A DNA stretch of 19,773 nt from a virus: UHGV virus genome UHGV-0141098; one strand, written 5' to 3'. A program made the translations under genes and the position numbers. Positions 380-15,259 of the stretch are shown piece after piece (the first letter of the stretch is position 1; every line of letters begins with the position of its first letter). A model generated the notes under the pieces. That model did no database searches and was not told the DNA's origin. It saw only the letters and a program-made list of their open reading frames with translations.

Positions 380-543
380 ATTGGCAGCCTCCTTAGACGT
401 TGGTATGTAACCACCGCAGAAGAGACCAATCTTGCTGGCGGTGGACTGTACGGAGTTGGCCTTACTGGCGTCCAAGGTAACCAGCCTACCCGAAGGTAGC
501 CCCATACAGCCCACCATTGTAGAGGTGTGCGTGTACGCCGATA

Positions 544-573
544 CAAAAAAAAGACGCGAGCGGCGTCTGTATC
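544..573 (-). terminator. putative Rho-independent terminator downstream of pacB
   Basis: On the minus strand: GC-rich 5-bp stem GACGC/GCGTC with a 5-nt loop, followed by T8. An outer GATACA/TGTATC pairing can extend the stem. Confidence 0.45.
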
Positions 574-698
574 GCCTTAGACTTAAGCGGGAGGCCAATC
601 CCGGCACCCGTTTTAATGAGGTGCCTGATAAGCATAAACCGAAAATGCCTCAAGGCGCAAGAGGTCAGGCTCAATGTAACATCGGTAGTTAAAAAACA

Positions 699-715
699 CA
701 ATTTATTAGAGCAAA
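699..715 (-). promoter_or_regulatory. C1-repressor-type operator (match to P1 consensus ATTGCTCTAATAAATTT)
   Basis: Minus strand reads TTTGCTCTAATAAATTG, 15/17 to the recalled P1 C1 operator consensus. Lies 3 nt after the pacB stop codon; contains a -35-like TTGCTC. Confidence 0.55.
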
Positions 716-4005: not shown

Positions 4006-4022
4006 CAATACATTAGAGCAAT
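4006..4022 (-). promoter_or_regulatory. C1-repressor-type operator upstream of lpa
   Basis: Minus strand reads ATTGCTCTAATGTATTG (core ATTGCTCTAAT exact). Followed by TTGCTA -35-like and TATTAT -10-like elements before the lpa Shine-Dalgarno. Begins 1 nt after the stop of the upstream 347-aa gene. Confidence 0.55.
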
Positions 4023-4023
4023 T

Positions 4024-5067
4024 TTATCTAACACTCGACGAATGACTTGTGATAACGCCGACTCCAAGCGCGTAATCAAAGAACAATCGTTGATGCATCG
4101 CCAGCCTACCGTGCGTCTTCTCCCAATTATCGCGGTCACGCTCAATATCACGCTGGCATGACTGGCACAGAGGAATTGCGTAAATGTCATGCGCGCATAA
4201 TCGACTATGACGAACGATATAAGGCGTAATGTGAGCGCCAGCTCCCGCCGCTCCGCACCCACAGCATGGACGGGAAGCAACAAAGTCCATGTACTCAGGT
4301 AATTTTAGCGATTGCAGTTTTGGTATTTTGAAATGCGCCATGCCAGGGTCGGAGTCAACATCCACAGGGCATACTTTTGCACGCATCGGCGCGGCGCGTT
4401 CTTCCATCATCTGAACATATGCTGTAGCGCGATCGTCATACGGGCGAATATCCGCCTCTTTCAGAGGTCCGCTATCCTGCGTTGCGGCTTTCATCTTATT
4501 TATTGATATACGGCAAACTTCTTCCGGCATCAGGTGCATCATGTTGCACATGAAAGCCCACCAGCACAGTTCCTGAATACTTAAATCATGGCCATCTGAA
4601 AGCCCCATTTCCTGACGGGCGACATCCAGTATCCAGTTAACGCGATTATTGTGCAGCGTTTCTTTCAGCTCATTAAAACCACGCATCCGGTAATGGTTAT
4701 CGTGATGCCAGCACAACAACACCGCGCTATTGTCTCGTTCAGCGTGGACAATATGGTTGTCACACCAACTACGATCTGCGGCCTGGCATTGCCCCTCTTT
4801 CCTGCGCAACCACGCCACCAGCGAGTCAATTCCACCAATACGGCGAAACAGTTCATCGCTGTTAAAAAACGGCTGCAACGCCTCATTTGTTGCCATAGTT
4901 TGCTCGGAAACAACGAGGCCGTCGTCCATGTGCTCGATTAACTCACGCGGCACCGGCTCCATAATAAATTTACGGCCAGCCTCCACCAGCTTTCTGACTT
5001 CCTGATCCACTTTGAATGTGGCGACGCCAAGCTCTTTTTGTACAAAGGGAGTAATAATGGCTTTCAC
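4024..5067 (-). CDS. hypothetical protein, 347 aa, at the position of P1 pdcB (post-doc); C-terminal Cys/His-rich motif
   Basis: GTG start with AAGGTG Shine-Dalgarno. C-terminal segment [38 protein letters not shown] resembles an HNH/zinc-binding motif. Identity with pdcB is positional only. Confidence 0.55.
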
Positions 5068-5094
5068 ATCACACCTTTCATCACTGATTGGGCT

Positions 5095-5278: not shown

Positions 5279-5659
5279 CTACTCCGCAGAACCATACAAT
5301 CTACGTAACGTGGCGGCGACAGAAGATACAGATATCTCGCCAGTCGCAGCGCCTACAGTAAGGTCTGCCAGTTCAGGTGAATCAAATACCTGCACCCCGT
5401 TACGGCGTAGAAATAGCAGCGCACTGTTTAGCGCGGTACGCTTATTGGCATCATTGAATATATGCCCTCTCGCCGTAGCCACCAGGTAGGTGGCGGAGAC
5501 TTCGAAAAGGTCGGTGATCTCTTCGTAGGCAACTCTGGCCTGAACTCTCCCGATAATGGCCTCTGCCCTACCCGGATCTGACATTCCCGACAGGCCGCCG
5601 TAGCGGCTTATATTCGCATCATGAAGCGCAATAAGTTCTTCCGGTGATATATGCCTCAT
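5279..5659 (-). CDS. doc: Doc toxin (Fic-fold, death-on-curing), 126 aa
   Basis: Protein [22 protein letters not shown]...[12 protein letters not shown]... matches P1 Doc almost residue for residue as recalled, including the Fic-like HxFx(D/N)ANKR motif. Coupled to phd by a 1-nt overlap. Confidence 0.95.
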
Positions 5660-5880
5660 TATCGGTTAACCAGTTCCTTGTTGGTGGAGTCCAGGGTGTC
5701 AAACAGGGATGCAAATTCAGCATCCAGCGCCGCTTTTTTGTAGGCTTCGAAAGTAGCCTTGCTGACAATTACTGCTGGCTCACGGCCTCTGCGGGTGATT
5801 TCAACCTCTTCCCCGGCCTCAACATTGTTGAGCACTTCAGAAAGGTTGCCGCGCGCGGTACGGAAGTTAATGGATTGCAT
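5659..5880 (-). CDS. phd: Phd antitoxin (prevents host death), 73 aa
   Basis: 73-aa protein [49 protein letters not shown]... matches P1 Phd as recalled. Sits directly upstream of doc. Confidence 0.95.
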
Positions 5881-5884
5881 AAAT

Positions 5885-5920
5885 ACCTCATGTACTCGTT
5901 ATGTGTACACAATTATAAAC
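5885..5920 (-). promoter_or_regulatory. phd-doc promoter with palindromic autoregulatory operator sites
   Basis: Minus strand reads TTTATAATTGTGTACACATAACGAGTACATGAGGTATTTATG: a TATAAT -10, then the palindrome GTGTACAC and the related GAGTACAT, then the Shine-Dalgarno. Confidence 0.5.
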
Positions 5921-6056
5921 TTCACAGGCATAAAGCACCAGCACTTTGCGGCTTAACAAACCTCTAGGCAGATCATTCGTAGCCTAATGTCCGAACTGCT
6001 AAAGCATCCAAGTTGCTGTAGAATCACCGCCAATTACATAAGCCTGAAATAAGTGG

Positions 6057-7615
6057 ATGAAAATGACAAGTATTCAACAACGTGCAGAGCTTCATCGTCA
6101 AATCTGGCAAATTGCTAACGATGTCAGGGGTTCGGTCGATGGATGGGATTTTAAGCAATACGTTCTGGGCGCACTTTTCTACCGTTTTATCAGCGAAAAT
6201 TTTTCCAGCTATATTGAAGCCGGTGATGACAGTATCTGTTATGCGAAACTGGATGACAGCGTAATTACTGATGACATTAAAGACGATGCCATCAAAACTA
6301 AAGGCTACTTCATCTACCCCAGTCAGCTTTTCTGCAACGTAGCGGCGAAAGCAAATACTAATGACAGACTGAATGCAGATTTAAACAGCATCTTCGTTGC
6401 TATCGAAAGTTCTGCTTACGGTTATCCTTCAGAAGCTGACATCAAAGGTTTGTTTGCTGATTTCGATACCACCAGTAACCGCCTGGGTAACACCGTTAAA
6501 GATAAAAATGCCCGCCTGGCTGCGGTTCTGAAAGGGGTTGAAGGGTTAAAACTTGGTGACTTCAACGAACATCAGATTGACCTGTTCGGTGATGCCTATG
6601 AGTTCCTGATTTCTAACTATGCGGCAAATGCCGGTAAGTCAGGCGGCGAGTTCTTTACACCGCAGCACGTCTCCAAGCTGATTGCACAACTGGCTATGCA
6701 CGGGCAGACCAGCGTTAACAAAATCTACGACCCGGCAGCGGGTTCCGGCTCACTGTTGTTGCAGGCGAAAAAACAGTTTGATAACCACATCATCGAAGAA
6801 GGCTTTTTCGGTCAGGAAATCAACCATACGACCTATAACCTGGCGCGTATGAACATGTTTTTGCACAATATCAACTACGACAAGTTTGATATCAAGCTGG
6901 GTAATACACTGACTGAGCCGCACTTCAGAGATGAAAAACCGTTTGACGCCATCGTATCTAACCCACCGTATTCGGTGAAATGGATTGGCAGCGATGACCC
7001 GACGCTGATTAACGATGAGCGTTTTGCCCCGGCTGGCGTTCTGGCCCCCAAATCCAAAGCTGACTTTGCGTTTGTACTACATGCGCTGAACTATCTTTCG
7101 GCCAAAGGTCGTGCTGCGATTGTCTGCTTCCCGGGTATTTTTTACCGTGGCGGCGCAGAGCAGAAAATCCGTCAGTATCTGGTCGATAATAACTATGTCG
7201 AAACCGTAATTTCACTGGCACCGAACCTGTTCTTTGGCACCACCATTGCAGTAAACATTCTGGTGCTGTCTAAGCATAAAACGGATACCAAAGTTCAGTT
7301 TATTGACGCCAGCGAACTGTTCAAAAAAGAGACTAACAACAATATCCTGACCGACGCCCATATCGAACAGATTATGCAGGTATTTGCCAGCAAGGAAGAT
7401 GTTGCTCATCTGGCGAAATCTGTCGCGTTTGAAGCCGTTGTAGCGAATGACTATAACCTGTCGGTGAGCAGCTATGTGGAAGCGAAAGATACTCGCGAAA
7501 TTATCGATATCGCTGAGTTGAATGCAGAGCTGAAAACCACGGTCAGCAAAATCGACCAGTTACGCCAAGACATTGATGCGATCGTGGCTAGAATTGAAGG
7601 CAGAGAGGTACAGGC

Positions 7616-7619
<4 letters not shown>
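6057..7619 (+). CDS. hsdM: Type I restriction-modification N6-adenine DNA methyltransferase subunit HsdM, 520 aa
   Basis: AdoMet-binding motif [10 protein letters not shown] and catalytic NPPY motif (SNPPYSVKW). N-terminus [17 protein letters not shown] matches EcoR124-family HsdM as recalled. Stop overlaps the hsdS start (ATGA). Confidence 0.95.
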
Positions 7620-8836
<1,217 letters not shown>

Positions 8837-8957
8837 TTGACCATTGCTACCGATCGGGCCACCTTAACACCCGGTCAGTATATAGACTATTTTTTACGCG
8901 CCGGAAGTCACTCTTAACGCCCTTCCGGCTCTTGCCAGGCGGCACAAAGGATGCGCT

Positions 8958-11900
8958 ATGACTCATCAAACACACACCATTGCTGAATCCAATAACTATA
9001 TCGTCCTTGATAAGTACATCAAAGCTAAGCAAACAAGCGACAGCTACCAGAGCGAATCGGACCTGGAACGTGAACTGATTCAGGACCTGCGGAATCAGGG
9101 TTATGAATTTATTTCCGTAAAATCACAGTCGGCAATGCTGTCCAATGTTCGGGAACAGCTTCAGAACCTCAATGGTGTGGTGTTTAATGACAGCGAGTGG
9201 CGGCGTTTCACGGAGCAGTATCTGGATAACCCGAGCGATGGCATTCTGGATAAGACCCGTAAAATCCATATCGACTATATTTGCGACTTTATTTTTGATG
9301 ACGAGCGTCTTGAGAACATCTATTTGATAGATAAAAAGAATCTCATGCGCAATAAGGTGCAGATTATCCAGCAGTTTGAACAGGCGGGTTCTCACGCTAA
9401 CCGTTATGACGTAACTATCCTGGTTAATGGCTTACCGCTGGTGCAAATCGAACTGAAAAAACGCGGCGTGGCGATTCGTGAGGCTTTCAACCAGATACAT
9501 CGTTACAGTAAAGAGAGTTTTAACAGCGAAAATTCCCTGTTTAAGTATCTGCAGCTGTTCGTCATTTCCAACGGCACTGATACCCGTTATTTTGCCAACA
9601 CGACAAAGCGCGATAAAAACAGTTTTGACTTCACCATGAATTGGGCGAAATCAGACAACACGCTGATTAAAGACCTCAAAGACTTTACCGCTACCTTTTT
9701 CCAGAAACATACTCTGCTGAATGTTCTGGTGAACTACAGCGTTTTTGACAGTAGTCAGACGCTACTGGTGATGCGACCGTACCAGATTGCCGCCACCGAG
9801 CGCATTCTGTGGAAAATTAAGAGTTCCTTTACAGCGAAGAACTGGTCAAAACCGGAAAGCGGTGGGTATATCTGGCACACTACCGGTTCTGGTAAAACCC
9901 TCACCAGCTTTAAAGCCGCGCGTCTGGCAACAGAGCTGGACTTTATTGATAAAGTCTTCTTTGTGGTCGACAGGAAAGACCTCGATTACCAGACCATGAA
10001 GGAATATCAGCGTTTTTCGCCAGACAGCGTCAACGGCTCGGAAAATACCGCAGGCCTTAAACGAAATCTGGATAAGGACGATAACAAAATTATCGTCACT
10101 ACTATTCAGAAACTCAATAACCTGATGAAAGCAGAAAGCGATCTGCCTGTATATAATCAGCAAGTGGTGTTTATATTTGATGAATGCCACCGCAGCCAGT
10201 TTGGAGAAGCGCAGAAAAACCTGAAGAAGAAATTCAAACGCTATTATCAGTTTGGTTTTACCGGCACCCCTATTTTCCCGGAAAACGCCTTAGGCTCAGA
10301 AACAACCGCCAGCGTATTTGGTCGTGAATTGCATTCGTATGTAATTACCGATGCGATTCGTGACGAAAAAGTGCTCAAATTCAAGGTGGACTACAACGAT
10401 GTGCGGCCACAGTTTAAGTCTTTAGAGACAGAAACTGACGAGAAAAAACTGAGTGCGGCTGAAAATCAGCAGGCGTTTCTTCATCCCATGCGTATTCAGG
10501 AAATCACGCAATATATTCTGAATAATTTCCGCCAGAAAACCCACCGTACCTTCCCTGGCTCAAAAGGTTTTAATGCTATGTTGGCAGTGAGCAGCGTGGA
10601 TGCCGCGAAAGCCTATTATGCGACGTTTAAACGGTTACAAGAAGAAGCCGCTAATAAATCGGCTACCTATAAACCGCTGCGTATTGCGACAATCTTCTCC
10701 TTTGCCGCCAATGAAGAACAAAATGCCATTGGTGAAATTTCCGATGAAACTTTTGATACCAGCGCAATGGACAGCAGTGCTAAAGAGTTTCTGGATGCTG
10801 CAATTCGTGAGTATAACAGCTATTTTAAAACTAACTTCAGCACCGACAGTAACGGTTTTCAGAACTACTATCGTGATTTAGCCCAACGGGTTAAAAATCA
10901 GGATATCGATCTGTTAATTGTCGTGGGAATGTTTTTAACCGGCTTCGATGCTCCAACATTAAACACGCTATTCGTCGATAAAAACTTGCGTTTTCACGGC
11001 CTGATGCAGGCATTTTCCCGCACCAACCGCATTTATGACGCTACTAAAACCTTCGGTAATATTGTCACGTTCCGGGATCTGGAACGCTCAACCATTGATG
11101 CCATAACGCTGTTTGGTGACAAAAATACCAAAAATGTGGTTTTAGAAAAGAGTTATGCAGAGTATATGGAAGGCTTTACTGATGCTGCCACTGGTGAAGC
11201 TAAACGCGGCTTCATGACAGTAGTTTCAGAACTGGAACAACGGTTCCCTGACCCTACCAGTATTGAAAGTGAAAAAGAGAAGAAAGACTTCGTTAAACTG
11301 TTTGGCGAATACCTGCGTGCCGAGAACATCCTGCAAAACTATGATGAATTTGCCACGCTAAAAGCCCTGCAACAAATCGATCTTAGCGATCCTGTTGCGG
11401 TAGAAAAATTCAAAGCAGAACATTATGTGGATGATGAAAAGTTCGCTGAATTGCAAACAATTCGTCTCCCTGCTGATCGCAAGATTCAGGATTATCGTTC
11501 TGCCTATAACGATATTCGCGACTGGCAGCGCCGTGAGAAAGAAGCTGAGAAAAAAGAGAAATCAACCACTGACTGGGATGACGTGGTTTTTGAGGTCGAT
11601 TTGCTGAAGTCTCAGGAAATAAACCTGGATTATATCCTTGGACTGATTTTCGAACACAACAGACAAAATAAAGGCAAGGGCGAAATGATCGAAGAGGTCA
11701 AACGCTTAATTCGTTCAAGCCTGGGGAACCGGGCGAAAGAGGGCCTGGTGGTCGATTTTATTCAGCAAACGAACCTGGATGATTTACCAGACAAAGCCAG
11801 TATCATTGAGGCATTCTTTACGTTTGCTCAACGCGAACAGCAACGTGAAGCAGAAGCATTGATAAAAGAAGAAAATCTCAATGAAGATGCAGCAAAACGC

Positions 11901-12074
11901 TATATTCGCACGTCTTTAAAACGCGAATACGCCACCGAAAATGGCACAGAATTAAACGAAACATTACCAAAACTTAGTCCGTTGAATCCGCAATATAAAA
12001 CGAAAAAACAGGCAGTTTTCCAGAAAATCGTCTCGTTTATTGAGAAGTTTAAAGGCGTAGGCGGAAAAATATAG
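8958..12074 (+). CDS. hsdR: Type I restriction endonuclease/translocase subunit HsdR, 1038 aa (EcoR124I-like)
   Basis: PD-(D/E)xK nuclease residues D151, E165, K167 ([20 protein letters not shown]). SF2 helicase motifs [12 protein letters not shown] and TGTP. Length of 1038 aa and N-terminus [14 protein letters not shown] match EcoR124I HsdR as recalled. Confidence 0.95.
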
Positions 12075-12153
12075 CCCAATTCGTGTTTTTCTTGCGGGTT
12101 CTTAATTAAACCCGCAAGAGCTCGTGGGGTTCCAAATGGCTAATATACTCCCC

Positions 12154-12240
12154 TTACCCATGCGCGACGATGCCGCCAAAAGTGATAGAGAACAGCCAGA
12201 AATAGATCGCGGTCATAATGATTTTGAATGCCGTGTTCAT
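12154..12240 (-). CDS. small hydrophobic peptide, 28 aa (MNTAFKIIMTAIYFWLFSITFGGIVAHG)
   Basis: Not in the ORF track. ATG preceded by AGGAG 8 nt upstream. One predicted transmembrane helix. Lies downstream of an operator-associated promoter-like element (12325..12341) and is convergent with hsdR. Confidence 0.35.
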   Translation of the reverse strand: MNTAFKIIMTAIYFWLFSITFGGIVAHG

Positions 12241-12269
12241 ATCTTCAGCTCCTGTGATTGATTGGATAT

Positions 12270-12300
12270 ATGCCGCGCCCCTTGCGGCATGTTTTTATTT
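12270..12300 (+). terminator. Rho-independent terminator (probable hsdR terminator)
   Basis: Stem ATGCCGC/GCGGCAT (7 bp) with a 7-nt loop, followed by GTTTTTATTTT on the plus strand. About 200 bp downstream of the hsdR stop. Confidence 0.6.
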
Positions 12301-12324
12301 TCACTCTCTCTGTTTTAAAAATCA

Positions 12325-12341
12325 AGATTTATTAGAGCAAT
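12325..12341 (-). promoter_or_regulatory. C1-repressor-type operator with overlapping promoter-like elements
   Basis: Minus strand reads ATTGCTCTAATAAATCT (16/17 to consensus). Its first base is the last base of the upstream gene's stop codon. -35-like TTGCTC, a 17-nt spacer, then TAAAAC. Confidence 0.6.
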
Positions 12342-12847
12342 TATTGTTGATGAAGAAGCGCATTTTCATACTCCCTGACCATTAACGTAAGTACGCCGTG
12401 ACTCCTGAAAACACGCGCCACTTCAATCTTATCTTCCAGCGCGAACGCAATTTTACTTAGACCAATTTTCTTCAGGAGATCAATCTTTGCTGGACCGTCA
12501 TTTCTGTCATCGGTGGCAGGACGCATAGATAGCAAAGGCTCAGCCCCATTTGTTACGTGCTTACGCAACCAGGCTCGTGTTTTATCCCTGGCTATCTCAC
12601 AGCGCCCGGTTACAAACCAGAGGGTGTAAATGCCGGACAACTGGCGCACCATATCAATAACTGGAGTGATGGGAGCATCAGTGTCACAGGCAAGGTTAAA
12701 CTCGTTCCAGTGCTCTGTTAATGCACCTTTACCTGGTGGCGGAAGCAAATGCAGTCTGTCTTCAGTTGCCTCTGATATTGTTCCATCAATATCGACTATG
12801 ACGATGTACGGACGTTCCTGGTGTGCGTGTTTATTGTAAATACTCAA
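12341..12847 (-). CDS. HAD-superfamily phosphatase-like protein, 168 aa
   Basis: N-terminal HAD motif I (IVIVDIDGTISE, DxDGT). TTG start with GGAGG 4 nt upstream. No closer assignment possible from sequence alone. Confidence 0.6.
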   Translation of the reverse strand: MSIYNKHAHQERPYIVIVDIDGTISEATEDRLHLLPPPGKGALTEHWNEFNLACDTDAPITPVIDMVRQLSGIYTLWFVTGRCEIARDKTRAWLRKHVTNGAEPLLSMRPATDDRNDGPAKIDLLKKIGLSKIAFALEDKIEVARVFRSHGVLTLMVREYENALLHQQ

Positions 12848-12920: not shown

Positions 12921-13815
12921 TCAGCGAACGTAAATAGTGCCGCCGTTCTCTTTTTCCCATGCATCGCTACGTGCATAGCAAACATCGAGAAGTCTTCTTG
13001 CCGCAGTTTCCTCTAAACCCAATTCGACAACCAACTGCTCATGACGGCGGGTAACCACATCAAACAGGGTATGCAGCCCTTTAGTTGCCAGATCATCAAT
13101 GAATTCCGGTTCGAACGGCAGCTCTGCATCTGCCAACATAACCTCTTGCGCCCACTCAACTCGACGGACCAATTCCGGGCGGCGGCTTTCCATCTCTTTA
13201 CAGATCAATTCATGGAAGAACTCTACCCAACCTTCCGGCTGGAACTCGCGGAAAATTGCCAACGGCTGGAAGTTTGGCATCAACCATTCGTTGATTCGGA
13301 TATCAATGGCATAGCCCATGTCGCAGCAGAACTGATAAGCAAAGTCCAGCTTAGAAACGATATAAGGACGCTCGTTATTGAACTCTTTAGGCGATGAGAT
13401 CCCATAAGCCAGGAGGCGCGGGAAGAAGGAGATTTGCCCTAACGTCGGATGAAGTTTGCTTGCAGGGAAACGGCGCTCAGTAATGCCATACATTTCCTTC
13501 TTGAGCGTCGCAAATTTGGCATTCTCATTAACCAGCGCGGTAACCTCTGCTTTTTTATTAGCAAATGCCACGCGCGCTTCGCTTGCATCTTTAATAGTTT
13601 TTTTGAGCTGTTGGTTAAGGTCAGCGACCTGCTTACGCAGTTCCTGTCGCTCGCTTTTAGCTTTGTTATAGCGTTTCTCAAGGTTAAAAGGATCAAGTTT
13701 CATGATCTCTTTATATTGAGATTTTAGCGTTGAAATCTGTGAGTTCCGCAGTTCAACCATCGCGGTCATTTCATTGAGTTTTGTTTCCAGCTCAATGCTT
13801 ATACGTTCGGCATTA
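12921..13815 (-). pseudogene. 3' portion (about 295 codons) of a ~420-aa coiled-coil protein gene interrupted by IS1
   Basis: The track ORF 12921..13829 begins with a TTG inside the IS1 left inverted repeat. Its reading frame is continuous with the ORF 14584..14959 once IS1 and one copy of the 8-bp duplication are removed. Confidence 0.7.
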
Positions 13816-13870
13816 GGTAATGGTGCCAACTTACTGATTTAGTGTATGATGGTGTTTTTGAGGTGCTCCA

Positions 13871-14146
13871 GTGGCTTCTGTTTCTATCAGCTGTCCCTCC
13901 TGTTCAGCTACTGAAGGCGTGGTGCGTAACGGTAAAAGTACTGCCGGACATCAGCGCTATCTCTGCTCTCACTGCCGTAAAACATGGCAGCTACAGTTCA
14001 CTTACACCGCTTCTCAACCCGGTACGCATCAGAAAATCATTGATATGGCCATGAATGGCGTCGGATGTCGCGCCAGTGCACGCATTATGGGCGTTGGCCT
14101 CAACACGGTTTTACGTCACTTAAAAAACTCAGGCCGCAGTCGGTAA
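13871..14146 (+). CDS. insA: IS1 InsA (transposition inhibitor; N-terminal part of InsAB' transposase), 91 aa
   Basis: Protein [51 protein letters not shown]... matches IS1 InsA as recalled. Confidence 0.9.
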
Positions 14147-14568
14147 CCTCGCGCATACAACCGGGCAGTGATGTGATTGTCTGCGCTGAAATGGACGAAC
14201 AGTGGGGCTACGTCGGTGCTAAATCACGCCAGCGCTGGTTGTTTTACGCGTATGACAGGATACGGAGGACGGTTGTGGCGCACGTATTCGGTGAACGCAC
14301 GCTGGCCACGCTGGAGCGTCTTCCGGGCCTGCTGTCGGCCTTTGAGGTCGTGGTATGGATGACGGATGGCTGGCCGCTTTATGAATCACGCCTGAAGGGA
14401 GAACTGCACGTTATCAGCAAGCGATATACGCAGCGCATTGAGCGGCATAACCTGAATCTGAGGCAGCATCTGGCAAGGCTGGGCAGGAAGTCACTGTCGT
14501 TCTCAAAATCGGTGGAGCTGCATGACAAAGTCATCGGGCATTATCTGAACATAAAACACTATCAGTAA
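14065..14568 (+). CDS. insB: IS1 insB reading frame (expressed as InsAB' by -1 frameshift at the A6C motif)
   Basis: Frame encodes ...[26 protein letters not shown]...[15 protein letters not shown]...KHYQ, typical of IS1 InsB. The slippery motif AAAAAAC is intact at 14122-14128. Confidence 0.85.
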
Positions 14569-14583
14569 GTTGGAGTCATTACC

Positions 14584-14959
14584 CGGCATTATCAGCACGC
14601 TGGTTGGCGTCATGCGTCGCATCGTCGATCGCGTCCTGTTGCTGGCGTTTCAAATGTTCAATTTGCAGCTGAAGCTCTTCAATTTCTTTACCCTTCAGAC
14701 CGAGATCCAACTGCATATTTTCAGCTGCATCTACCAGGGAGTTATGGCTATCAGCTTCTGCGTTATAAACATCAATAAGCTGTGCGTGAAGCATCTCCGC
14801 TGACTGAACCGCATTATCAAAAAAACGTGCTGTGAGGTCATCACAACTAACGCGGCGTTGCGCGGCCCGGATGTTCTGGATAATGGCCGGGATACCGGCA
14901 TTCAGGACATCAGGGATAGATACATTTTCGATTGATTGGTTTTGTGCTGAAGTGCTCAT
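14584..14959 (-). pseudogene. 5' portion (125 codons) of the IS1-interrupted ~420-aa coiled-coil protein gene
   Basis: The track ORF 14579..14959 ends at a stop supplied by IS1 sequence. Its frame joins the 12921..13815 portion across the target duplication (...RADNA | ERISIELE...). Confidence 0.7.
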
Positions 14960-15193: not shown

Positions 15194-15210
15194 ATTGCTC
15201 TAATAAAAAA
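15194..15210 (+). promoter_or_regulatory. C1-repressor-type operator, plus orientation
   Basis: ATTGCTCTAATAAAAAA, 14/17 to consensus. Its A-tail runs directly into the hairpin at 15211-15231. Confidence 0.55.
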
Positions 15211-15242: not shown

Positions 15243-15259
15243 GGAATTATTAGAGCAAT
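15243..15259 (-). promoter_or_regulatory. C1-repressor-type operator, minus orientation
   Basis: Minus strand reads ATTGCTCTAATAATTCC (14/17, core exact). Begins 1 nt after the stop of the 233-aa gene. Followed by the same ATTTTTAAAAC element seen after the operator at 12325. Confidence 0.55.

What the first reader, a model, noticed from the sequence alone, without database searches (positions are those of the whole stretch)
12154..12341. Operator-driven 28-aa hydrophobic peptide gene convergent with hsdR
An unannotated ORF (MNTAFKIIMTAIYFWLFSITFGGIVAHG) has a good Shine-Dalgarno and lies about 85 nt downstream of an operator with -35/-10-like elements. The plus-strand terminator at 12270-12300 lies in its 5' leader, so the hsdR 3' UTR is antisense to it. 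A single-helix membrane peptide with antisense overlap is the layout of type I toxin-antitoxin loci and of small membrane regulators.
Basis: partly seen in the sequence, partly recalled or inferred. Interest (0 to 1): 0.5.

Follow-up and report, generated by a model that had tools for sequence, protein, structure and literature searches.

The report
Overlooked small membrane-protein gene of phage P1
The 28-codon ORF is very probably a real but overlooked gene of the phage P1 family: a tiny single-helix membrane protein made when the phage repressor is lifted. In this plasmid a restriction-enzyme cassette has cut it off from its operon, and the toxin-antitoxin reading is not supported.

Summary
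ORF 12154-12240(-) has an AGGAG Shine-Dalgarno 8 nt before its ATG, a 16/17 match to the P1 C1 operator 85 nt upstream, and a hairpin plus T-run on the + strand.

The window is a P1-like phage-plasmid. The operator is the known Op88/OpmgT. In P1 the same ORF is unannotated and lies between that promoter and pmgT. Here a type IC hsdMSR cassette replaces pmgT-humD, with the junction about 4-7 nt after the ORF stop.

The ORF looks like a real gene:
- The SD and ATG are invariant in every intact copy among about 117 P1-type loci read.
- piN/piS is 0.04 in the native context.
- 46-aa and 53-aa homologues sit behind the same leader in Salmonella plasmids, Cronobacter phage JK004 and metagenomic P1-like contigs, although the shared codons are only 45-62% identical in DNA to P1's and differ comparably between the Salmonella and 53-aa groups.

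The type I toxin-antitoxin reading is not supported. The hairpin covaries and sits about 4-7 nt after the predicted -10, so it is most simply the 5'-terminal stem-loop of the sense mRNA. The antisense T-run exists only in the P1 group. No antisense promoter and no known toxin or sRNA family match was found.

In hsd-bearing elements like this one, selection on the peptide looks relaxed (piN/piS 0.46). Its function is unknown.

The parts
12154..12240 (-). Small ORF: 28 codons plus stop, MNTAFKIIMTAIYFWLFSITFGGIVAHG. Predicted single transmembrane helix.
   Evidence: Same ORF in P1, with T10A. Intact in all but two (one cut by IS1, one by an insertion) of about 117 P1-type loci read; context analyses used the 106-109 with enough flank. 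46/53-aa homologues in other P1-like elements, with M1, K6, A11 and W15 invariant.
12249..12253 (-). Shine-Dalgarno AGGAG, 8 nt before the ATG.
   Evidence: Duplex energy -6.6 kcal/mol, top 2.7% of short ORFs in the window. CAGGAGC and the ATG are invariant in all intact copies while neighbouring bases vary. GGAG is kept in all groups.
12255..12265 (-). CCAATCAATCA motif between the hairpin and the SD. Role unknown.
   Evidence: Present in nearly the same form in the P1, Salmonella, JK004, L134 and L136 leaders; shortened to CCAATCA in L133 and L135.
12270..12290 (-). Leader hairpin: arms ATGCCGC and GCGGCAT with a 7-nt loop. Proposed 5'-terminal stem-loop of the sORF mRNA. Read on the + strand, with the T-run up to 12302, it looks like an intrinsic terminator.
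   Evidence: A hairpin with a different stem sequence sits at the same place in every group. In the six non-P1 leaders, 4 of 7 pairs show compensatory change, 90.5% of cells pair, and slid controls give 17-55%. A U-G pair in L135 and the population variant 12284 C>T both fit the sense RNA only.
12297..12325 (-). Predicted sigma-70 promoter, equivalent to P1pmgT: -35 TTGATT (12325-12320), 17-bp spacer, -10 GAAAAT (12302-12297). A second predicted promoter, P2pmgT, spans 12340-12312.
   Evidence: P1 annotation mapped onto the window. For most leaders read, a -35-like hexamer at the operator's end with a 17-bp spacer to a -10-like hexamer can be picked out by eye (L135 is unclear). No promoter scan or TSS mapping was run or available.
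12325..12341 (-). C1 repressor operator OpmgT (formerly Op88). It overlaps the last base of the pap stop codon.
   Evidence: 16/17 match to the consensus. Annotated as a protein_bind feature for C1 in P1 and P7.
12341..12847 (-). pap: phosphatase of the polynucleotide kinase/phosphatase (PNKP) HAD type, the upstream gene.
   Evidence: PF25109 at E=3e-11. P1 Pap annotation.
12075..12149 (.). Flank specific to the hsd cassette. Homology to P1 ends at about 12147-12150, that is 4-7 nt after the sORF stop. The flank contains the perfect inverted repeat 12090-12100 / 12109-12119.
   Evidence: Query positions 76-271 match P1. Sequences compared. Inverted repeat.
8958..12074 (+). hsdR of a type IC (EcoR124-family) restriction system, convergent with the sORF.
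   Evidence: PGAP name 'EcoR124 family'. PF12008 EcoR124_C on the 1038-aa protein called at the same position (next to the small ORF) in sister contigs.

Best explanation
The ORF is a genuine, previously overlooked gene of the phage P1 family.

Shown:
- It follows the C1 operator Op88/OpmgT.
- It is conserved as an open frame with its SD and ATG across diverged P1-like elements.
- Amino-acid changes are selected against in the native P1 arrangement.

Inferred mechanism:
- When C1 repression is lifted, the sigma-70 promoter that overlaps the operator fires.
- The transcript starts at or inside a conserved stem-loop, which would protect its 5' end.
- Ribosomes load at the strong SD and make a 28-residue peptide that inserts into the inner membrane as one helix. 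K6 flanks the helix, the core is aromatic (IYFWLF), and one face is S18/G22/A26.
- The peptide then acts on a host or phage membrane target as a non-essential early accessory function.

In P1 it is the first cistron before pmgT-pmgU-pmgV. In Salmonella and Cronobacter relatives a longer form (46 or 53 aa) is followed by an HTH-like gene; in the 53-aa forms the stop overlaps that gene's start.

In this window a type IC hsdMSR cassette has replaced everything downstream. The gene is therefore an orphan facing hsdR, and selection on it appears relaxed. It is not a type I toxin-antitoxin locus.
For: Identity of the locus:
- The window is a P1-like phage-plasmid.
- The operator is the annotated OpmgT/Op88, with predicted promoters.
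- In P1 the ORF is followed after 10 nt by the pmgT ATG.

Coding signals:
- The SD and ATG are invariant in every intact copy among about 117 P1-type loci read, while flanking bases vary.
- The ORF frame has the lowest pN/pS of the six frames: 0.34 against 0.53-1.51, binomial p=0.017.
- Nonsynonymous sites vary less than the intergenic leader: 11/66 against 42/98, p=6e-4.
- piN/piS is 0.04 in the native context, against 0.07 for pap.

Divergent homologues behind the same operator-promoter-hairpin-SD leader:
- JK004, 53 aa.
- Salmonella plasmids, 46 aa.
- Metagenomic contigs L133-L136.
- DNA identity over the shared TM codons is 45-59% between P1 and the other groups and 51-62% between the Salmonella and 53-aa groups. 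The polar tail in the 53-aa group has omega 0.15-0.62, below 0.3 in six of ten pairs.
- M1, K6, A11 and W15 are invariant.

Hairpin: it covaries and favours the sense strand. It begins about 4-7 nt after the -10-like hexamer in the leaders where I could place one by eye.

Relaxation in the hsd context:
- 8 protein alleles in 32 contigs, including G22D and G23D.
- piN/piS 0.46 while pap stays at 0.09.

The neighbouring genes are non-essential: pap and pmgT/U/V score as non-essential by CRISPRi and deletion (PMC10695390).
Against: - There is no direct evidence of transcription start, translation or membrane insertion.
- The within-P1 signal rests on about 20 segregating sites in related, non-independent sequences. 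Counts of segregating sites do not differ between contexts (4 syn / 3 nonsyn against 8 / 8); only their frequencies do.
- Between groups, the TM segment has omega 0.3-0.9, with single pairs above 1. This is expected for a helix that tolerates hydrophobic swaps, but it is weak as proof.
- No partner or phenotype is known, so the step 'acts on a membrane target' is pure inference.
- Synonymous diversity in the ORF (piS 0.036) is lower than in pap (0.135). That could reflect an added nucleotide-level constraint or a different recombination history.
Confidence: 0.72

Rival explanations
1. Type I toxin-antitoxin-like module. The peptide is a membrane toxin. A + strand RNA ending at the 12268-12302 terminator silences it by pairing with the SD and start region. 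That RNA would be either a dedicated sRNA or the hsdR 3' UTR.
For: - The peptide has the size and hydrophobicity of a type I toxin.
- A canonical terminator-like hairpin plus T-run lies on the + strand, overlapping the leader.
- No canonical terminator lies between the hsdR stop and that hairpin, so hsdR read-through would cover the whole ORF.
- In IncF plasmids, which need not carry a C1 repressor gene, the ORF and its promoter are cut off by IS1. This is compatible with selection against unrepressed expression.
Against: - No convincing + strand promoter. The best candidates are CATAAT at 12214 with a 3/6 -35, and TATACT at 12144 with a 2/6 -35, the latter in the hsd-specific flank.
- The antisense T-run is absent in JK004, Salmonella and L133-L136, although the hairpin is kept there.
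- The U-G pair and the 12284 C>T variant fit the sense RNA and would be A-C mismatches on the antisense RNA.
- No hit to Rfam antitoxin RNAs or to toxin families in Pfam or NCBIfam.
- The leader beyond the hairpin is not unusually structured (z = -0.7).
- The promoter is C1-repressed, and the ORF heads an operon in P1 and its relatives.
- The IS1 junction is the same in the IncF plasmid read (L005) and, per the P1 annotation, R124/3, and the listed IncF-type rows share an identical truncated match, so one ancestral insertion is likely.
Confidence: 0.07
2. Leader or coupling ORF. The ORF is translated only to open the mRNA and deliver ribosomes to the downstream gene (pmgT in P1, the HTH-like gene elsewhere). 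The peptide itself has no function.
For: - The stop lies 10 nt before the pmgT ATG in P1.
- The stop overlaps the next start (ATGA) in the 53-aa group.
- Constraint on the peptide drops when the downstream genes are replaced by hsd.
Against: - The amino-acid sequence is conserved: piN/piS 0.04 in the native context, four invariant residues and a conserved hydrophobic helix across groups, and tail omega 0.15-0.62, mostly well below 1.
- pmgT has its own SD.
- Different downstream genes follow the same ORF.
Confidence: 0.12
3. Untranslated leader. The ORF is a chance open frame in the 5' UTR of the pmgT operon, and its conservation reflects RNA- or DNA-level function.
For: - Low synonymous diversity in the ORF (piS 0.036 against 0.135 in pap).
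- Segregating changes are spread almost evenly over codon positions (6/6/8).
- Not annotated by the P1 curators or by PGAP in most records.
Against: - The frame, ATG, SD and hydrophobic helix persist at 45-62% DNA identity between the three groups.
- The annotated frame has the lowest pN/pS of the six frames.
- A 2-nt loop insertion in the window breaks the alternative 44-aa upstream start but leaves the 28-aa ORF intact.
- At 87 nt the ORF is, to my knowledge, below Prodigal's 90-nt minimum. That would explain its absence from automatic annotation.
Confidence: 0.08

Closest known systems
P1 Op88/OpmgT operator-promoter region and the pmgT operon (P1 genome annotation NC_005856; operator first described by Citron et al. 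1989, from my own knowledge)
   Same: Same DNA. The window from 12150 to 12345 is 96% identical to P1 84289-84482. It contains the annotated C1 operator, the predicted promoters P1pmgT and P2pmgT, and the leader.
   Different: The P1 annotation treats the 194 nt between pap and pmgT as non-coding. The 28-codon ORF is not annotated there. In the window pmgT-humD are absent and hsdMSR takes their place.
P1-derived flanks of type IC hsd loci (EcoR124, EcoDXXI). Tyndall et al. 1997, Mol Microbiol 23:729, cited in PMC12707154.
   Same: The window shows the same two junctions that the P1 annotation records: DNA 'downstream of the EcoDXXI hsd locus' = P1 84263-84482, and DNA 'upstream' = P1 87969-88647, which is phd-doc. 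The IncF plasmid examined (pHP050, L005) carries the same cassette with an IS1-cut remnant of the ORF, and 291 plasmids fall in the same match band.
   Different: Here the cassette sits in an otherwise P1-like phage-plasmid, with pap, Op88 and the small ORF intact. The P1 annotation notes that record these flanks mention no gene in the downstream flank.
Type I toxin-antitoxin toxins (Hok, TisB, Ldr, Ibs, ShoB, ZorO, DinQ)
   Same: A single hydrophobic helix of about 20-50 residues. In this window an antisense transcript across the gene is possible.
   Different: - No sequence or model match.
- No antitoxin promoter.
- The antisense terminator is not conserved in homologous loci.
- The promoter is controlled by a phage repressor.
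- The ORF is the first cistron of an operon.
Small single-helix membrane regulators of enterobacteria (MgrB, MgtR, MgtS, AcrZ, KdpF). Comparison from my own knowledge.
   Same: Similar size, one transmembrane helix, a small-xxx-small face (S18/G22/A26) of the kind that mediates helix-helix binding, and a normal SD-led ORF with no RNA antitoxin.
   Different: It is phage-encoded, expressed from a lytic promoter, has no known partner, and shows no sequence similarity to these proteins.

Membership tests
Type I toxin-antitoxin system | Small hydrophobic, membrane-active peptide ORF | tested here: met
   28 aa. The maximum 19-residue Kyte-Doolittle mean is 1.97, in the top 2.2% of short ORFs in the window. 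Membrane activity itself was not tested.
Type I toxin-antitoxin system | Antisense or overlapping sRNA antitoxin with its own promoter and terminator | tested here: not met
   A terminator-like site is present on the + strand, but no promoter reaches the scan threshold. The best -10 candidates have -35 matches of 2-3 out of 6. The fold z-score of the putative antisense RNA is -0.5.
Type I toxin-antitoxin system | Antitoxin element conserved in homologous loci | tested here: not met
   The hairpin is conserved, but the antisense T-run is absent in JK004, Salmonella and L133-L136. The wobble pairs fit the sense strand only.
Type I toxin-antitoxin system | Match to a described toxin or antitoxin family | tested here: not met
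   - Pfam: no hit at E<=0.01 for the 28-aa form, and only sub-threshold noise at E<=1 for the family.
- NCBIfam: none at E<=10.
- PHROGs: none.
- Rfam: only a 15.8-bit GcvB chance hit.
Type I toxin-antitoxin system | Toxicity on expression, relieved by the RNA | not testable with these tools
   Needs inducible expression and membrane-potential assays.
C1-controlled early operon of phage P1 (OpmgT/Op88) | 17-bp C1 operator overlapping a sigma-70 promoter | tested here: met
   ATTGCTCTAATAAATCT, 16/17. Identical to the P1 operator annotated as C1-bound. The promoter hexamers are predicted only.
C1-controlled early operon of phage P1 (OpmgT/Op88) | Synteny pmgS-pap-operator-leader in a P1-type replicon | tested here: met
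   The C4 and isrK RNAs of immI are also present.
Translated small protein gene | Conserved start codon and SD | tested here: met
   Invariant in all intact copies. Kept in all groups.
Translated small protein gene | Purifying selection on the encoded amino acids, and ORF retention in diverged relatives | tested here: met
   piN/piS is 0.04 in the native context. This frame has the lowest pN/pS of the six. 46/53-aa homologues exist at 45-62% DNA identity between groups, with tail omega 0.15-0.62. Numbers are small, and the sequences are related.
Translated small protein gene | Direct evidence of translation | not testable with these tools
   No paper held the peptide sequence, and no P1 ribosome-profiling study was found.
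Type IC (EcoR124-family) restriction-modification cassette (neighbour) | HsdR with an EcoR124_C domain; hsdM-hsdS-hsdR order; P1-derived flanks | tested here: met
   PF12008 and related domains on the 1038-aa protein called at the same position in sister contigs. PGAP name. ORF order. Flank homologies.

The most novel reading that the evidence does not exclude
The peptide is the conserved 'gatekeeper' first gene of the variable cargo region of all P1-like phage-plasmids. It would be a membrane-acting early protein that is harmful when expressed without control. In hsd-bearing elements, read-through of hsdR to the leader hairpin would then silence it. That would create an accidental type-I-TA-like link between a restriction cassette and a phage membrane toxin. 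It could also explain why mobilised cassettes outside P1 carry the ORF only in IS1-truncated form.
Probability: 0.06. Interest if true: 0.6.

Novelty: new member of a known kind. Interest (0 to 1): 0.35.

Why it matters
P1 is a classic model phage, and P1-like phage-plasmids are common: the 271-nt region is found in 890 of 5426 complete E. coli genomes.

A conserved gene sitting unannotated directly behind one of the mapped C1 operators adds a candidate early function to the P1 map. It also defines a small protein family (28, 46 and 53 aa) with no Pfam, PHROG or NCBIfam entry.

Three practical points follow:
- The Op88 'leader' should not be treated as non-coding in P1 engineering.
- The leader hairpin should not be read as a terminator.
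- The module operator / 5' hairpin / small ORF marks the constant edge of a cargo-exchange region. That region holds pmgT-humD in P1, hsdMSR here, and HTH-led gene sets elsewhere.

No phenotype is known, so the importance is modest until one is found.

Tried and rejected
- Distant homologues from the P1 form alone. The word-indexed search and a full HMMER scan of 1.84 billion representatives with the 44-aa form found only near-identical E. coli sequences. Homologues appeared only after following Pap to Cronobacter phage JK004, and then with a profile.
- The 28-aa query was too short for the search for related loci and the search for homologous proteins.
- A genome-contig scan with Pap gave only two E. 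coli loci.
- A distant Pap hit in Citrobacter has no synteny.
- Literature. 'pmgT' mostly matched unrelated terms. The P1 genome paper (PMC523184) is not held. No paper holds the peptide sequence. No ribosome-profiling study of P1 was found.
- The 44-aa N-terminal extension annotated in SJ46 is rejected. Its ATG lies in the hairpin with no SD, and the window's 2-nt loop insertion puts it out of frame.
- The antisense 45-aa ORF at 12124-12261(+) is rejected. Its 5' part lies in hsd-specific DNA, and the antisense frames show no syn/nonsyn signal.
- The 12090-12119 hairpin is not a terminator for either strand, because no T-run follows it.
- MAFFT and RNAalifold misaligned the P1-type hairpin with the others. 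Covariation was therefore counted on the six non-P1 leaders only.
- Pfam and PHROGs gave no functional clue for PmgT, PmgU or PmgV. None of them has a clear transmembrane segment.

Full report
**1. What is at the coordinates**

- The minus strand carries an ATG-started ORF at 12154-12240 that encodes MNTAFKIIMTAIYFWLFSITFGGIVAHG.
- AGGAG lies 8 nt before the ATG (12253-12249).
- A 16/17 match to the phage P1 C1-operator consensus lies at 12325-12341, 85 nt from the ATG. It is one of five such sites in the window, against 0.12 expected by chance.
- The pattern scan finds one terminator-like site in 11900-12600. It is on the + strand, with a stem at 12268-12292 followed by TTTTATTTTC.
- hsdR (8958-12074, +) converges on the ORF.
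- Of 224 ATG-started ORFs of 20-60 aa in the window, this one is in the top 2.2% for hydrophobicity and the top 2.7% for SD pairing.

**2. Where the window comes from**

The window is a P1-like phage-plasmid.
- Rfam finds the C4 antisense RNA and isrK, which belong to the P1 immI region.
- The 271 nt between hsdR and pap occur in 890 of 5426 complete E. coli genomes, almost always on plasmids.
- The neighbours are pacA, lpa, pdcB, doc and phd on one side, and pap, pmgS, pmgQ and ppp on the other.

From 12150 onward the region is 96% identical to P1 84289-84482. In the curated P1 record this stretch holds three things:
- the C1-bound operator OpmgT (formerly Op88), which overlaps the pap stop codon;
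- two predicted sigma-70 promoters;
- what is treated as a non-coding leader in front of pmgT.

The same 28-codon ORF, with A instead of T at residue 10, is present there unannotated. It ends 10 nt before the pmgT ATG.

The P1 record already notes that this stretch, and phd-doc on the other side, flank the type IC hsd loci EcoDXXI and R124/3. That goes back to Tyndall et al. 1997, cited in PMC12707154. In the window, hsdMSR therefore replaces P1 pmgT-humD. The right-hand junction lies 4-7 nt after the small ORF's stop codon.

**3. Is the ORF a gene? Evidence within P1-type elements**

I fetched about 117 P1-type loci from IMG/VR, first with a degenerate ORF pattern and then with a flank pattern. 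The two sets were almost the same.
- The ORF is intact in all but two. One is cut by IS1 and one by an insertion.
- CAGGAGC and the ATG never vary in intact copies, while bases between and around them do.
- The annotated frame has the lowest pN/pS of the six frames: 0.34 against 0.53-1.51. The excess of synonymous changes has binomial p=0.017.
- Nonsynonymous sites vary less than the intergenic leader: 11/66 against 42/98, p=6e-4.

Splitting by context gives the following.

| Context | Contigs | Peptide | piN/piS, small ORF | piN/piS, pap |
|---|---|---|---|---|
| Native (ORF then pmgT) | 75 by context (72 with enough flank for piN/piS) | identical in 72 of 75 | 0.04 | 0.07 |
| hsd cassette, as in the window | 32 by context (33 in the piN/piS set) | 8 protein alleles, including G22D and G23D inside the helix | 0.46 | 0.09 |

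They suggest purifying selection on the peptide in P1, and relaxation once the downstream operon is replaced. The numbers are small and the sequences are related, so this is suggestive and not proven.

**4. Is the ORF a gene? Evidence from diverged relatives**

The P1 form has no distant hits of its own. Following Pap led to Cronobacter phage JK004, whose Pap is 72% identical.
- JK004. Directly after pap come the same C1 operator, a -35/-10 pair, a hairpin, CCAATCAATCA, GGAG and an ATG. These open a 53-aa ORF, MHLIFKLAITAFYAWMLTVVITSFKPDANMK....
- Salmonella P1-like plasmids. They lack pap but have the same leader after pmgS, with an unannotated 46-aa ORF, MHTVFKLAMAAFYIWIFTIVFTGIAKATPVN....
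- A profile search found more 46- and 53-aa members on contigs of up to about 94 kb, several of them near P1 size. Four of these were read. Each follows pmgS or pap, and each has a stop that overlaps (ATGA) a roughly 104-aa gene; one of the four carries a faint HTH_24 hit.
- In the alignment M1, K6, A11 and W15 are invariant, and residues about 5-24 form a conserved hydrophobic helix. The P1 group is the short form, lacking the polar tail.
- Over the shared codons, DNA identity is 45-59% between P1 and the other groups and 51-62% between the Salmonella and 53-aa groups. The tail in the 53-aa group has omega 0.15-0.62.

An open frame with its start signals that survives this much DNA divergence, in front of three different downstream gene sets, is strong evidence for a translated gene. 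No Pfam, PHROG or NCBIfam family covers it.

**5. What the 'terminator' is**

- Every group has a hairpin at the same place, but with different stem sequences:
  - ATGCCGC/GCGGCAT in the window
  - GGCCGC/GCGGCC in JK004
  - AGGCCAC/GTGGCCT in Salmonella
  - an 11-bp TTGGCAGTCAC stem in L133
- On the six non-P1 leaders, 4 of 7 pairs show compensatory change and 90.5% of cells pair. Controls with the partner slid by 1-3 columns give 17-55%.
- One U-G pair in L135, and the population variant 12284 C>T in the P1 group, are wobble pairs on the sense RNA. On the antisense RNA they would be A-C mismatches.
- In the leaders where I could place a -10-like hexamer by eye, the hairpin begins about 4-7 nt after it. 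The transcript would therefore start at or just inside the stem.
- By established knowledge, a 5'-terminal stem-loop protects an mRNA from 5'-end-dependent decay, as for ompA. That it does so here is inference.
- The T-run that makes the + strand look like a terminator is the complement of the A-rich -10 region of the P1 group. It is absent in JK004, Salmonella and L133-L136.
- In the window the hairpin may still stop hsdR read-through, because nothing terminator-like lies between 12074 and 12268. The IncF plasmid read in detail (pHP050, L005) keeps hsdR without this hairpin, because an IS1 has removed it. So hsdR does not depend on it.

**6. The type I toxin-antitoxin idea**

Only the peptide's size and hydrophobicity fit.
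- No + strand promoter passes the scan. The best -10 candidates have poor -35 elements, and one of them lies in hsd-specific DNA.
- There is no Rfam match.
- The sense and antisense RNAs fold no better than shuffled sequences apart from the hairpin.
- The antisense terminator is not conserved.
- The promoter is a C1-repressed lytic promoter, and the ORF heads an operon in P1 and its relatives.

I therefore do not file the locus as a type I TA. A toxin-like activity of the peptide is not excluded, but nothing here tests it.

**7. Most likely mechanism**

Shown:
- a conserved operator, leader hairpin, SD and ORF module;
- coding-type constraint on the ORF;
- replacement of the downstream genes by the hsd cassette.

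Inferred:
- C1 release fires the promoter.
- The mRNA starts with a protective stem-loop.
- A 28-aa single-helix peptide enters the inner membrane. It acts there as a non-essential early accessory factor, perhaps by helix-helix contact through the S18/G22/A26 face.

The neighbouring genes pap and pmgT/U/V are dispensable for plaque formation (PMC10695390). In the window the gene is an orphan facing hsdR and seems to be drifting.

**8. Rivals**

| Rival | Confidence | Main argument |
|---|---|---|
| Coupling or leader ORF with no peptide function | 0.12 | Fits the tight spacing to the next gene, but not the amino-acid conservation |
| Chance ORF in a non-coding leader | 0.08 | Fits the low synonymous diversity, but not the cross-group retention of the frame |
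| Type I TA-like module | 0.07 | See section 6 |

**9. Novelty and score**

The operator, the predicted promoters and the hsd flanks are already known. The gene call, its family (28, 46 and 53 aa), and the reinterpretation of the hairpin are new but ordinary in kind: a small phage membrane protein. Interest is 0.35.

Noticed in passing
window 434-521(-) and 547-624(-): Rfam C4 antisense RNA (75.9 bits) and isrK (60.8 bits). This is the immI immunity region of a P1-type phage.
   Followed up: no
window 699-715, 4006-4022, 12325-12341, 15194-15210, 15243-15259: Five C1-operator-like sites, against 0.12 expected by chance. By position relative to the flanking genes they appear to correspond to the immI operator (my identification), Olpa (Op94), OpmgT (Op88) and the Op86a/b pair.
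   Followed up: partly
window 13830-14600: pmgS appears to be split by an IS1. InsA- and InsB-like ORFs at 13871-14146 and 14065-14568 (+) sit between pmgS fragments at 12921-13829 and 14579-14959 (-). The near-identical plasmid NZ_CP060066 is annotated the same way.
   Followed up: partly
window 12090-12119: A perfect 11-bp inverted repeat lies just after the hsdR stop. Its T-run is upstream of the stem, not downstream, so it is not a canonical terminator on either strand. It belongs to the hsd cassette and travels with it in the IncF plasmid read (L005).
   Followed up: partly
window 12255-12265(-); L130-L136 leaders: CCAATCAATCA, between the leader hairpin and the SD, is almost invariant across all groups of the family, although the surrounding leader has diverged. 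Its role is unexplained.
   Followed up: no
L005 (NZ_LC520286) 4950-5090; 291 PLSDB plasmids: The IncF plasmid read in detail (L005) carries the type IC hsd cassette with a remnant of the small ORF cut at codon 3 by IS1, which also removes the promoter and hairpin; 291 PLSDB plasmids fall in the same 80-90% match band and the listed ones share the same truncated match. P1's annotation of the R124/3 homology starts at the same base, so one ancestral insertion is likely.
   Followed up: partly
L130 3087-3248; L131 2501-2641: JK004 gene_94 is annotated from an internal ATG (38 aa), whereas the full ORF behind the SD is 53 aa. The 46-aa Salmonella homologue is unannotated in RefSeq, and so apparently is the start of the HTH-like gene after it.
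   Followed up: partly
L003 1426-2495 (P1 pmgT and pmgU): The annotated pmgT and pmgU overlap by 195 nt. The PmgT N-terminus (MIFNDEMVRAILEGRKTQTRR) looks ASCH-like from memory, but Pfam gave no hit.
   Followed up: no
L131-L136 compared with window 5279-12150: The stretch between the small ORF and the pdcB/lpa side of the backbone holds different gene sets in different P1-like elements: pmgT-humD-phd-doc in P1, hsdMSR here, and HTH-led sets elsewhere. It behaves as a cargo-exchange region with the small ORF at its constant edge.
   Followed up: partly
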